Origin: Escherichia coli
GTDB lineage: Bacteria; Pseudomonadota; Gammaproteobacteria; Enterobacterales; Enterobacteriaceae
Length of the DNA: 64,000 nt
NCBI RefSeq assembly: GCF_003019035.1
Contig: NZ_CP027447.1
Reading direction: 5' to 3' (one strand)
A program made the position numbers. Shown in pieces: positions 1 through 3,000 of the stretch (position 1 is the stretch's first letter; every line of letters starts with the position of its first letter).

Positions 1-3000
1 CGAACAACGCTGGCAGCGAATTTTACATATCCAACAACAACTGGCTGGTGAGCAGGTAGCGCTCTCTGATGAAGTCAACCAGTCGGAACAAACAACCAAC
101 TTCCATAACCGGGCCATTGCCTGGCTGCTGTACTCCGCCGGATATCTCTATTGTGATGCAATGGAAGCCTGTGACGTGTACACCCGTCAGTGCTCCACGC
201 TCATCAATACTGTTGAACTGGCAACGCTTGGCGCGACGCTGGCGGCGGGGGGAGTGAATCCGCTGACGCATAAACGCGTTCTTCAGGCCGACAACGTGCC
301 GTACATTCTGGCCGAAATGATGATGGAAGGGCTGTATGGTCGCTCCGGTGACTGGGCGTATCGCGTTGGTTTACCGGGCAAAAGCGGTGTAGGTGGCGGT
401 ATTCTGGCGGTCGTCCCTGGCGTGATGGGAATTGCCGCGTTCTCACCACCGCTGGACGAAGAAGGCAACAGTGTTCGCGGTCAAAAAATGGTGGCATCGG
501 TCGCTAAGCAACTCGGCTATAACGTGTTTAAGGGCTGATCATGATGAACACGGAAGGTAATAACGGTAACAAACCCCTCGGTCTATGGAACGTCGTTTCC
601 ATCGGTATTGGGGCAATGGTGGGGGCGGGGATCTTCGCGCTGCTGGGGCAGGCTGCGTTGCTAATGGAAGCCTCGACCTGGGTCGCCTTTGCATTTGGCG
701 GTATTGTGGCGATGTTTTCCGGTTATGCCTATGCGCGCCTGGGGGCGAGCTATCCCAGCAATGGCGGTATTATCGACTTCTTTCGTCGCGGATTAGGCAA
801 CGGCGTCTTTTCGCTGGCGCTCTCGTTACTGTACCTGTTGACGCTGGCGGTAAGCATCGCCATGGTCGCCCGTGCTTTTGGCGCTTATGCCGTGCAGTTT
901 TTGCATGAAGGCAGCCAGGAGGAGCACCTTATATTGCTCTACGCGTTGGGGATCATTGCGGTGATGACGCTTTTCAACTCCTTAAGCAACCATGCGGTAG
1001 GGCGGCTGGAAGTGATCCTCGTCGGCATTAAAATGATGATCCTGTTATTGCTGATTATTGCCGGTGTCTGGTCGCTGCAACCGGCGCATATTTCCGTCTC
1101 TGCGCCCCCCAGCTCCGGTGCGTTCTTCTCCTGTATCGGGATAACCTTCCTTGCCTATGCGGGCTTTGGCATGATGGCGAACGCGGCGGATAAAGTGAAA
1201 GATCCGCAGGTCATTATGCCACGGGCGTTTCTGGTGGCGATTGGCGTTACCACGTTGCTTTATATCTCGCTGGCGCTGGTTTTGCTTAGCGATGTATCGG
1301 CATTAGAGTTAGAAAAATATGCCGATACCGCCGTAGCGCAGGCTGCTTCTCCGCTGCTCGGGCATGTGGGTTATGTGATCGTCGTCATCGGCGCTTTACT
1401 GGCGACGGCTTCAGCCATAAACGCGAACCTGTTCGCCGTGTTTAACATCATGGACAACATGGGCAGCGAACGCGAACTGCCGAAGCTAATGAATAAATCC
1501 CTGTGGCGGCAGAGTACCTGGGGCAACATCATTGTCGTGGTGCTGATTATGCTGATGACGGCGGCGCTGAATTTAGGCTCACTCGCCAGCGTTGCCAGCG
1601 CCACCTTTTTGATCTGCTATCTGGCGGTGTTTGTGGTGGCGATCCGCCTGCGTCATGATATTCACGCCTCGTTGCCGATTCTTATCGTTGGTACGTTGGT
1701 GATGTTGTTGGTGATCGTTGGCTTTATCTACAGCCTGTGGTCCCAGGGCAGCCGTGCGTTGATATGGATTATTGGTGCAATCTTACTCAGCCTTATTGTG
1801 GCAATGGTCATGAAGCGCAATAAAACCGTATAACACCTCTCTGCGCGCAGTACAGCCTGTACTGCGCCTTTGTCTTTAATTCAAATTACCTTTCTTATTC
1901 CTTTAATAAATAAGTCACAAAAAAATGATATATACGCGATAAATCTGTGATGCTAATCACTTATTACCGTGGATTATTCTTAATGCGTATGATGGTAATC
2001 TAAAAGTCGTAGTGTATTCTAAATAAATAACGTATAAGCTTTTTAGCTGCATTTCTTTGCCAATATCAATGATCGACAAAAGAGATGCACAAGTTATTAC
2101 CCTTCTTAATAAAATGAGACTGGTTATAAAAACCAGTTAAAATAATGACCTGGAAGGAAGTGACTTATCTATGGCGCGATTCCAGTTTAAAAACAGTAAA
2201 AATAATGGACTTATTTTTTTTATAAGTTTTATTGTGATGGGAGAAGCTACAATTGCTGCACCGCTGCCACAATGGGCGAACGCCCCAGCGGTAACGCCAG
2301 TTGCCCAATTATCTTTACAGGAAAGTATATTACGCGCCTTTGCGCGAAATCCCGACGTCACTCAACAGGCGGCGCAGATAGGTATTGGCGAAGCGCAAAT
2401 TGATGAAGCCAAAAGTGCCTGGTATCCGCACGTTGGATTAACCGGCAATGCGGGACCGTCCCGACAAACGGACTCCAGTGGCAGGCTTGATAACAACGTT
2501 TCGTATGGCATAACCCTGACACAGCTGGTGTATGACTTTGGTAAAACTAACAACGATATCAAACTGCAAACTGCCGCCCGTGACAGCTACCGCTTTAAAT
2601 TGATGGCAACATTAACCGATGTTGCAGAGAAAACGGCAACTGCCTATATGGAAGTCAGTCGTTATCAGGCTTTGAGCGATGCGGCTCAACGCAATATTCA
2701 CTCGCTGGAAAACGTCTACAACATGGCGGCATTGCGCGCTAACGCTGGCCTGAACTCGTCGTCGGATGAATTACAGGCCCAGACGCGTATTGCCGGAATG
2801 CGCTCAACGCTGGAGCAATATCAGGCGCAGATGGCGAGCGCCAAAGCGCAACTGGCGGTGCTCACTGGCGTACAGCCGGAGGCGATAGCCGCGCCACCTG
2901 CTGAATTAGCCGAGCAGCCGGTCTCGCTGAAAAATATTGATTACCAGTCCATCCCACTGGTGCTGGCGGCAGAAAACTTACGCCAGTCAGCACAGTACGG

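What the first reader, a model, noticed from the sequence alone, without database searches (positions are those of the whole stretch)
1878..2170. AT-rich 5' boundary of the T1SS island with a small hairpin
About 290 bp of AT-rich DNA separates the ybaT terminator from the outer membrane protein gene. It contains ctggttataaaaaccag (perfect 6-bp stem, about 2119-2135) and several A/T tracts, so it is a candidate H-NS-silenced promoter region for the island.
Basis: inference. Interest (0 to 1): 0.3.

Follow-up and report, generated by a model that had tools for sequence, protein, structure and literature searches.

The report
Known promoter region of adhesin-secretion operon
This AT-rich spacer is the already-studied control region in front of an E. 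coli operon (O-island 28) that secretes a giant adhesin; it is switched on by PhoB, RstA and RpoS, H-NS silencing is untested, and the small hairpin is ordinary on its own but may cap a larger mRNA fold that hides the ribosome-binding site.

Summary
**Verdict: an ordinary, already published promoter region.**

- **What it is.** The window is E. coli chromosome. Bases 1834-2170 lie between ybaT and the first gene (tolC28) of a type I secretion/giant-adhesin operon known as O-island 28 (siiEA).
- **The observation.** The AT-richness is real (29% GC against 55% for the window). The hairpin is real too, with a 7-bp stem at 2119-2137. Hairpins this good occur in about 20% of composition-matched random sequences. 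The A/T tracts are at chance level.
- **What is published.** The O157:H7 orthologue is 98.5% identical.
  - It drives a lacZ fusion.
  - It binds RstA at a box that maps to 1877-1890.
  - It belongs to a PhoB-activated operon.
  - Its first gene is 55-fold RpoS-dependent.
- **What I add.**
  - The best Pho-box match of the whole 64 kb lies at 1890-1918, followed 10 nt later by TGATATATA.
  - The last 92 nt before the ATG are more conserved across Escherichia species than the flanking genes.
  - These 92 nt fold on the + strand into a structure that pairs the Shine-Dalgarno region, with the hairpin at its tip.
- **H-NS.** Silencing remains untested, and I found no data for this locus.
- **The "island".** It is ancestral in Escherichia. 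K-12-type strains carry a deletion scar.

The parts
1845..1877 (+). ybaT intrinsic terminator: 10-pair stem at 1845-1867 plus T-rich tail. The left end of the K-12-type deletion (about 1860-1866) falls inside it.
   Evidence: Terminator scan. Alignments with K-12 and CFT073. The stem is kept in other Escherichia species.
1877..1890 (+). RstA box TAATTCAAATTACC, at -294 to -281 from the tolC28 ATG.
   Evidence: Exact sequence match at the published position; EMSA is lost when the box is removed (PMC12758282). Located in the window. Poorly conserved in E. ruysiae, E. whittamii and Escherichia sp. E1V33.
1890..1918 (+). Candidate tandem Pho boxes CTTTCTTATTC CTTTAATAAAT AAGTCAC, in 11-bp phase.
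   Evidence: Matrix built from 12 known Pho boxes. 1890-1907 scores 15.3 bits, the top hit of the whole 64 kb on both strands. 1901-1918 scores 12.0 bits. P = 0.011 in shuffles. Weaker hits lie at the same place in the other species.
1926..1934 (+). Candidate extended -10, TGATATATA, 10 nt after the last Pho half-site. The inferred start of transcription is near 1941.
   Evidence: Read from the sequence. TATATA is invariant in six Escherichia sequences. The start site is inferred, not measured.
1946..1961 (+). CRP-like dyad TGTGA-N6-TCACT. It overlaps a weaker Pho-like match at 1934-1951 and an 8/10 H-NS-motif match at 1936-1945.
   Evidence: Pattern search. The half-sites are invariant while the spacer varies among species. 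H-NS motif search.
1987..2057 (+). Conserved middle block, containing the promoter predicted with BPROM in the published study (-35 ATGATG at 1989-1994, -10 region at 2012-2020).
   Evidence: PMC12758282. Near-invariant in alignment A3.
2058..2078 (.). Variable patch, replaced by unrelated sequence in the other Escherichia species.
   Evidence: Alignment A3.
2079..2170 (+). Proximal conserved block. On the + strand RNA it folds so that CCUUCU (2101-2106) pairs with GGAAGG (2152-2157), AAGUUAUU (2091-2098) pairs with AGUGACUU (2159-2166), and AGAUG (2083-2087) pairs with UAUCU (2166-2170).
   Evidence: 92.5-96.8% identity to three other species, against 66-78% at third codon positions. Minimum free energy -21 kcal/mol with z -4.09 on the + strand, and z -1.95 on the - strand. 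RNAalifold gives 26 pairs.
2119..2137 (+). It forms the tip of the larger fold.
   Evidence: Four stem positions vary among species, and all stay paired as G-U on the + strand only. An IS1 element is inserted here in strain ECNB21-M121, with target duplication TGGTTATAA at 2121-2129.
2086..2143 (+). Two sigma-70-like consensus matches: TGCACA-18-TAAAAT (2086-2115) and ATGAGA-18-TAAAAT (2114-2143).
   Evidence: Promoter scan, 9 of 12 each. O157:H7 has T2115C, which spoils the first -10.
2171..3526 (+). tolC28, the TolC-family outer membrane gene and first gene of the operon.
   Evidence: Pfam OEP, E = 9e-47. PGAP annotation.
3629..24406 (+). Giant BapA-related adhesin gene siiEA (6925 aa), intact in this window.
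   Evidence: ORF list. Annotation. BapA_N and Big_13 domains in the 6924-aa orthologue.
24410..27744 (+). ABC transporter gene (24410-26572) and HlyD-type adaptor gene (26569-27744). The adaptor's stop codon overlaps the cueR ATG (ATGA at 27741-27744).
   Evidence: Pfam. Sequence.

Best explanation
Bases 1834-2170 are the transcriptional control region, and probably also the long mRNA leader, of the O-island 28 operon (tolC28, siiEA, an ABC transporter and an adaptor gene).

**Shown in a 98.5%-identical orthologue**
- The region has promoter activity.
- RstA binds it directly at the box that maps to 1877-1890.
- The operon depends on PhoB.
- Expression is strongly RpoS- and stationary-phase-dependent.

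**Inferred here**
- PhoB binds tandem Pho boxes at 1890-1918, directly after the RstA box.
- These boxes take the place of a -35 element for a -10 at 1929-1934, so transcription would start near 1941.
- That puts the RstA box at about -64 to -51, a normal activator position.
- It also leaves a leader of about 230 nt.
- The last 92 nt of that leader are strongly conserved.

H-NS may add repression on this AT-rich DNA, but nothing here shows it.
For: - **Identity of the locus.**
- **Orthologue identity.** 98.5% over 1834-2170. The RstA box and Pho boxes are identical in O157:H7.
- **Published experiments.**
  - RstA lacZ fusion, ChIP-qPCR and EMSA, and a box at -294 to -280.
  - PhoB activation of ecs0540-0544.
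  - Z0608 is 55-fold and Z0609 20-fold RpoS-dependent.
  - ECs0540 and ECs0541 rise by 3.5-4.1 log2 units on entry to stationary phase.
- **Pho boxes.** The top matrix hit of the 64-kb window is at 1890-1907 (15.3 bits). Known boxes score 6.4-19.3 in leave-one-out. A phased second hit follows at 1901-1918. P = 0.011.
- **-10 element.** TGATATATA lies 10 nt downstream and is conserved.
- **Conservation.** The proximal 92 nt are more conserved than the flanking coding DNA.
- **Fold.** z = -4.09 on the + strand. A consistent consensus fold pairs the Shine-Dalgarno region. All four stem substitutions keep pairing on the + strand only.
Against: - No start of transcription has been measured. The published core promoter is only a BPROM prediction, at 1989-2020.
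- My scan finds other consensus matches at 2086-2143.
- I could not read the primary PhoB paper, so the Pho-box positions are mine.
- The RstA box is not conserved in the other Escherichia species. By my recollection of the consensus TACATNTNGTTACA it has five mismatches.
- The leader fold has no compensatory double substitutions. The block is almost invariant, so conservation could equally reflect a promoter or an operator.
- The fold window was chosen after seeing the hairpin.
- RpoS dependence could be indirect, or partly due to read-through from ybaT.
Confidence: 0.8

Rival explanations
1. One reading: the AT-rich spacer is bound by H-NS, which silences the operon's promoter until a counter-silencer acts. 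This is compatible with the main explanation rather than exclusive of it.
For: - GC is 29.4% over 293 bp.
- GCGATAAATC at 1936-1945 matches the H-NS nucleation motif at 8 of 10 positions.
- Expression is low in exponential phase and rises 11-17-fold in stationary phase.
- Expression depends on RpoS. By general knowledge this is common for H-NS-repressed promoters.
- OmpR-family activators often act as counter-silencers (general knowledge).
- H-NS represses several other RTX operons (review PMC12846084).
Against: - No H-NS occupancy or hns-mutant data were found for this locus.
- Motif matches at this level are at chance frequency.
- AT content and A/T tracts are ordinary for intergenic gaps here.
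- The operon body is 59.5% GC and the locus is ancestral in Escherichia.
- The gene reaches a log2 signal of 10.8 in wild type without any hns mutation.
Confidence: 0.35
2. The conserved proximal block (2079-2170) is the core promoter plus an operator for an unknown regulator, giving a short leader. The hairpin and the outer inverted repeat would then be protein-binding DNA symmetry, not RNA structure.
For: - Two sigma-70-like matches lie at 2086-2115 and 2114-2143.
- The block is nearly invariant across species, as expected for dense protein-binding sites.
- The hairpin would lie in the 18-bp spacer of the second match.
Against: - O157:H7, where the operon is expressed, has T2115C in the first -10.
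- The other species carry a 1-nt insertion that stretches the first match's spacer to 19 bp.
- As double-stranded DNA the outer repeat is only about 10 of 14 symmetric. As + strand RNA all 14 positions pair, using G-U pairs.
- Substitutions in the hairpin break DNA symmetry and - strand pairing but keep + strand RNA pairing.
- The experimentally supported RstA box and the Pho boxes lie 170-270 bp further upstream.
Confidence: 0.25
3. The small hairpin is a chance inverted repeat in AT-rich DNA with no function of its own.
For: - 20-22% of composition-matched random sequences contain a perfect stem of at least 7 bp.
- There are no compensatory double changes.
- Most substitutions in the conserved block fall in its stem, which suggests it is the least constrained part.
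- There is no Rfam match.
- One strain tolerates an IS1 insertion inside it.
Against: - The loop and six stem pairs are retained in four Escherichia species.
- All four variable stem positions keep pairing on the + strand. For transitions that has roughly a 6% chance.
- The hairpin sits exactly at the tip of a larger fold with z = -4.09.
Confidence: 0.4
4. The hairpin is a terminator for a transcript on the - strand.
For: The terminator scan lists it on the - strand: ACTGGTTTTTATAACCAGT followed by CTCATTTTAT.
Against: - The stem has only 3 G-C pairs of 7.
- No - strand gene ends there, since tolC28 is on the + strand.
- In E. whittamii and Escherichia sp. E1V33 the - strand hairpin collapses (0 and -1.2 kcal/mol), while the + strand version persists.
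- The number of terminator-like hits in the region equals the shuffled expectation (3 against 2.4).
Confidence: 0.03

Closest known systems
Regulatory region of tolC28 (z0608/ECs0540) of O-island 28 in E. coli O157:H7
   Same: It lies at the same chromosomal position, between ybaT and the TolC-family gene. It is 98.5% identical. The RstA box is identical and at the same distance from the ATG. The operon is the same.
   Different: In this window the adhesin gene is one intact 6925-codon frame. In O157:H7 and EAEC 042 it is frameshifted. There are five substitutions in the spacer, including T2115C in O157:H7.
Pho-regulon promoters of E. coli (pstS, phoA, phoE)
   Same: Tandem 11-bp-phased Pho half-sites are followed after 10 nt by a -10 element, with no -35 (architecture from general knowledge of Pho promoters). 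PhoB dependence of the orthologous operon is reported.
   Different: The half-sites are CTTT-type rather than CTGTCAT. The inferred leader of about 230 nt is much longer. PhoB binding at these exact bases was not seen by me.
asr promoter of E. coli, controlled by both PhoB and RstA
   Same: It is an acid- or stress-induced promoter under two OmpR-family regulators that bind adjacent or overlapping direct repeats. This rests on general knowledge. asr served as the positive control for RstA binding, and its phoBR control is cited.
   Different: No sequence similarity was tested. asr is a single small gene, not a 25-kb secretion operon.
H-NS-silenced RTX and adhesin promoters (V. cholerae and V. 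vulnificus rtx, E. coli hly)
   Same: An AT-rich upstream region sits in front of a type I secretion operon.
   Different: There is no H-NS evidence here. The operon body is GC-rich (59.5%), the locus is ancestral in the genus, and known activators already account for induction.
RBS-occluding leader structures such as fourU-type RNA thermometers
   Same: A pyrimidine stretch (CCUUCU) is predicted to pair with the Shine-Dalgarno purines just upstream of the start codon of a colonisation-factor operon.
   Different: There is no Rfam match, no covariation and no measured start site. At -21 kcal/mol the fold is, by my recollection, more stable than typical thermometers.

Membership tests
Promoter/regulatory region of the OI-28 type I secretion operon | Lies directly upstream of the first gene of the operon, at the ybaT side | tested here: met
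Promoter/regulatory region of the OI-28 type I secretion operon | Orthologous to the experimentally studied O157:H7 fragment | tested here: met
   98.5% identity over 337 bp. Alignments.
Promoter/regulatory region of the OI-28 type I secretion operon | Published RstA box TAATTCAAATTACC at -294 to -280 | tested here: met
   Exact match at 1877-1890, which is -294 to -281 from the ATG at 2171.
Promoter/regulatory region of the OI-28 type I secretion operon | Promoter activity of this strain's fragment, and a mapped start of transcription | not testable with these tools
   Only a reporter in the O157:H7 orthologue. No start site was found in any paper I could read.
Pho-regulon promoter | Pho box matching the matrix of known boxes | tested here: met
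   15.3 and 12.0 bits at 1890-1918. This is the top hit of the window, with P = 0.011.
Pho-regulon promoter | -10 element about 10 bp downstream of the box | tested here: met
   TGATATATA at 1926-1934, with TATATA conserved.
Pho-regulon promoter | PhoB binding and PhoB-dependent induction at low phosphate | not testable with these tools
   Reported for ecs0540-0544 by Yoshida 2010, seen only through citations. The paper is not held.
H-NS-silenced promoter | AT-rich relative to the genome | tested here: met
   29.4% GC against 54.9% for the window, but similar to other intergenic gaps.
H-NS-silenced promoter | High-affinity nucleation motif TCGATAAATT, or A-tract excess | tested here: inconclusive
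   One 8/10 match. The window-wide count is at chance (53 against 43.7). A/T tracts are at chance.
H-NS-silenced promoter | H-NS occupancy, and derepression in an hns mutant | not testable with these tools
   No data found. The CFT073 ChIP strain lacks the locus.
H-NS-silenced promoter | Belongs to AT-rich, recently acquired DNA | tested here: not met
   Operon genes are 59.5% GC. The locus is next to ybaT in four Escherichia species. K-12 and CFT073 carry a deletion scar.
Intrinsic terminator (hairpin on the - strand) | G+C-rich stem, U tract, a gene ending upstream on that strand, and a conserved structure | tested here: not met
   3 of 7 pairs are G-C and no - strand gene ends there. The - strand pairing is lost in two species.
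RBS-occluding leader RNA structure | Shine-Dalgarno region paired in a fold more stable than shuffled sequence | tested here: met
   -21 kcal/mol, z = -4.09, 0 of 200 shuffles as stable. The consensus fold agrees.
RBS-occluding leader RNA structure | Covariation supporting the helices | tested here: inconclusive
   0 compensatory pairs. Four one-sided changes are all G-U compatible. The outer helices are invariant.
RBS-occluding leader RNA structure | The region is transcribed as part of the mRNA leader | not testable with these tools
   Only inferred, from the upstream position of the RstA and Pho boxes.
Inserted genomic island boundary | Insertion next to a tRNA gene or with an integrase, and an empty site in strains lacking it | tested here: not met
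   No tRNA gene in 1-32000. The 'empty' sites keep about 100 nt of the adaptor gene's 3' end, with a frameshift. CFT073 annotates this remnant as a pseudogene.

The most novel reading that the evidence does not exclude
The operon is transcribed from the distal PhoB/RstA promoter with a leader of about 230 nt. Translation of the outer-membrane component, and by coupling the output of the operon, would then need an unfolding signal such as temperature, a small RNA or a protein. This would be a post-transcriptional checkpoint on a giant-adhesin secretion system that has not been described.
Probability: 0.25. Interest if true: 0.45.

Novelty: already known. Interest (0 to 1): 0.2.

Why it matters
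- **For the scan.** This item can be closed. It is the documented control region of a documented colonisation operon, not a new element.
- **Three small additions may help people working on O-island 28.**
  - A concrete placement of the Pho boxes next to the RstA box. This makes sense of why the RstA site lies nearly 300 bp from the start codon.
  - The last 92 nt before the ATG are under stronger constraint than the neighbouring genes, and they can pair the ribosome-binding site.
  - The "island" is ancestral. About 82% of complete E. coli genomes share one deletion scar, which changes how its "acquisition" should be described.

Tried and rejected
- **Known RNA families.** An Rfam scan of 1700-3700 at a permissive threshold gave nothing in the spacer.
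- **Leader peptide.**
  - The 23-codon frame at 2070-2141 starts in the variable patch and is broken by a 1-nt insertion in other species.
  - The 8-codon frame at 2113-2141 loses its ATG in O157:H7 (read).
- **Minus-strand terminator.** Rejected.
- **CueR operator.** GGAAGG near the ATG is only a half-site and fits better as the Shine-Dalgarno sequence. I did not pursue it.
- **RfaH ops element.** There is no exact GGCGGTAGNNTG in the leader. The near matches lie inside genes.
- **Cross-genus comparison of the upstream DNA.** Outside Escherichia the homologous operon sits in other contexts and the upstream DNA does not align (Salmonella L010; Pseudocitrobacter L009 and L013).
- **H-NS evidence in the literature.** Five searches and one supplement search found nothing for this locus. 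CFT073 lacks the region.
- **The primary PhoB paper.** It could not be read.
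Full report
**1. Where we are**

The window is E. coli chromosome. 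The gene order is as follows.
- glsA and ybaT (541-1833).
- A TolC-family outer membrane gene (2171-3526).
- One 6925-codon BapA-related adhesin gene (3629-24406).
- An ABC transporter gene (24410-26572).
- A HlyD-type adaptor gene (26569-27744).
- cueR (27741-28148).

RefSeq calls the adhesin siiEA. The locus is the "RTX-like" type I secretion locus of EAEC 042 and O-island 28 of O157:H7.

**2. The observation**

- The spacer from 1834 to 2170 is 337 bp. Only 0.05% of 293-bp windows are that AT-rich.
- Other intergenic gaps in the same window have 30-39% GC. The composition is therefore normal for a promoter-bearing spacer.
- The ybaT terminator is there: a stem at 1845-1867 followed by a T-rich tail.
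It is really a perfect 7-bp stem at 2119-2137 with loop ATAAA.
- Taken alone the hairpin is unremarkable. 53-55% of composition-matched random sequences have a perfect stem of at least 6 bp, and 20-22% have one of at least 7 bp.
- The A/T tracts match the shuffled expectation.

**3. What is already published about this DNA**

The spacer is present in 958 of 5426 complete E. coli genomes, always at 95% identity or more. The O157:H7 copy is 98.5% identical.

For that copy, a 2025 paper (PMC12758282) reports the following.
- The tolC28 upstream region drives lacZ.
- Expression falls 3-5-fold in an rstA mutant.
- RstA is enriched about 6-fold in ChIP-qPCR.
- RstA shifts the fragment in EMSA, and the shift is lost when the box TAATTCAAATTACC at -294 to -280 is removed.

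That box is at 1877-1890 in the window, which is -294 to -281 from the ATG. The core promoter in that paper is only a BPROM prediction. It maps to 1989-1994 and 2012-2020.

Earlier work adds more.
- The first two genes of the operon are 55-fold and 20-fold RpoS-dependent (PMC2907692).
- They rise by 3.5-4.1 log2 units on entry to stationary phase (PMC2241611).
- ecs0540-0544 is a PhoB-activated operon (Yoshida 2010, seen only through citations; the paper itself is not held).

None of these papers mentions H-NS. My other literature searches found no H-NS data for the locus. The one H-NS ChIP-seq study of a pathogenic strain that I could read used CFT073, and CFT073 lacks the region.

**4. Anatomy worked out here**

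*Pho boxes.*
- I built a matrix from the 12 known Pho boxes in Table S4 of PMC3978041.
- The best hit of the whole 64 kb, on either strand, is CTTTCTTATTCCTTTAAT at 1890-1907 (15.3 bits). Known boxes score 6.4-19.3 in leave-one-out.
- An 11-bp-phased second hit lies at 1901-1918 (12.0 bits).
- A score that high arises in 1.1% of shuffled spacers.
- Ten nucleotides later comes TGATATATA (1926-1934). Its TATATA is invariant in six Escherichia sequences.

*Inference from that layout.*
- A box followed 10 nt later by a -10, with no -35, is the textbook arrangement of Pho promoters.
- It would put the start of transcription near 1941 and the RstA box at about -64 to -51.
- That explains why a working activator site lies almost 300 bp from the start codon.
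- It implies a leader of about 230 nt. This is inference; no start site has been measured.

*Other features.*
- A CRP-like dyad, TGTGA-N6-TCACT, lies at 1946-1961. Its half-sites are invariant and its spacer varies among species. I leave it as a candidate.

**5. Conservation**

Only Escherichia species have the operon next to ybaT: E. coli, Escherichia sp. E1V33, E. ruysiae and E. whittamii. Compared with those species:
- third codon positions of ybaT and tolC28 are 66-78% identical;
- the distal spacer is 78-83% identical;
- a 21-bp patch (2058-2078) is replaced outright;
- the last 92 nt before the ATG are 92.5-96.8% identical, more than the flanking coding DNA.

The RstA box itself is poorly conserved outside E. 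coli.

**6. The hairpin in context**

- As + strand RNA, 2086-2173 folds to -21 kcal/mol. This gives z = -4.09, and 0 of 200 shuffles fold as well. The - strand gives z = -1.95.
- The whole inferred leader (1941-2185) gives z = -3.33.
- RNAalifold on six sequences returns the same 26-pair fold:
  - CCUUCU (2101-2106) pairs with GGAAGG (2152-2157);
  - AAGUUAUU (2091-2098) pairs with AGUGACUU (2159-2166);
  - AGAUG pairs with UAUCU, right up to the ATG;
- Four stem positions of the hairpin vary among species. All four remain paired as G-U on the + strand. On the - strand the hairpin collapses in two species.
- That pattern points to RNA rather than a DNA palindrome. It rests on only four one-sided transitions (roughly a 6% chance), with no compensatory pairs, and the outer helices are invariant.
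- The alternative is that the block is a core promoter plus operator. That is weakened by T2115C in the -10 candidate of O157:H7 and by a 1-nt spacer insertion in the other species. It is not excluded.

**7. Is it an island boundary?**

- K-12 and CFT073 share one identical junction. ybaT's terminator is cut at about 1860-1866 and joined to the last ~100 nt of the adaptor gene, with a 1-nt frameshift, just before cueR.
- RefSeq annotates that remnant in CFT073 as a truncated pseudogene.
- This junction is present in 4458 of 5426 genomes. The full locus is present in 958.
- There is no tRNA gene nearby.
- The operon is 59.5% GC, higher than its flanks.
- Together with its presence at the same site in sister species, this makes it an ancestral Escherichia locus removed by one old deletion in most E. 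coli. It is not an AT-rich recent import of the kind H-NS typically coats.

**8. Verdict**

- "H-NS-silenced" is an untested add-on, supported only by composition.
- The hairpin is not significant by itself.
- The most interesting reading still open is an RBS-occluding leader structure with the hairpin at its tip. I give it about one chance in four.
- As a scan finding this is ordinary. Interest is 0.2.

Noticed in passing
window 1860-1866 joined to about 27646; L002 5860-5990; L042 18488-18615: Strains without the operon carry a deletion scar. The last ~100 nt of the adaptor gene, with a 1-nt frameshift, remain between ybaT and cueR. The scar is identical in K-12 and CFT073 and is present in 4458 of 5426 complete genomes. 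CFT073 annotates it as a pseudogene.
   Followed up: yes
window 27741-27744: The cueR start codon overlaps the stop of the adaptor gene (ATGA). In strains carrying the operon, the copper regulator cueR may therefore be co-transcribed with, or translationally coupled to, the secretion operon.
   Followed up: no
window 28152-30572: A second strain-variable insert lies between cueR and ybbJ and is absent from K-12. It holds a 338-aa protein with a YadA-like anchor (trimeric autotransporter, 28828-29844, - strand), a 140-aa predicted lipoprotein, a 67-aa membrane protein and a 120-aa ORF with no Pfam match. Its own spacer (29845-30209) has 31.5% GC. CFT073 has a different gene at this spot.
   Followed up: partly
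window 3629-24406: The giant adhesin gene is one intact 6925-codon frame here. It is frameshifted in O157:H7 and EAEC 042, and it is annotated in pieces in the otherwise identical strain SCU-301.
   Followed up: partly
L004 3297-4063 (window 2121-2129): Strain ECNB21-M121 has an IS1 element inserted inside the hairpin, 41 bp before the tolC28 ATG, with the 9-bp target duplication TGGTTATAA.
   Followed up: yes
L037 2490-2510 (window about 2031 to 2650): A divergent E. coli strain (SCPM-O-B-8794) has a deletion running from the middle of the spacer into tolC28. This is another sign of decay of the locus.
   Followed up: partly
L009 1-2784 and L013 8-2257: In Pseudocitrobacter faecalis the homologous secretion operon lies directly after dosC/dosP-like genes of c-di-GMP metabolism (GGDEF and PAS-GGDEF-EAL domains). 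This hints at a different regulatory input there.
   Followed up: no
window 1946-1961: A CRP-like dyad, TGTGATGCTAATCACT (9 of 10 core positions), has half-sites invariant across Escherichia species while its spacer varies. It lies about 73 bp upstream of the start implied by the published BPROM promoter.
   Followed up: partly
window 12695, 19871 and 15 other sites: One-mismatch matches to the RfaH ops motif GGCGGTAGNNTG are over-represented: 17 found against 4.7 expected. Several lie inside the adhesin gene, probably because of its G+C-rich repeats.
   Followed up: no
L011 and L040: Contigs labelled as Collinsella sp. and Bacillota metagenome-assembled genomes carry this E. coli-type ybaT-tolC28 region (98% protein identity for L011). 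This looks like binning contamination.
   Followed up: no
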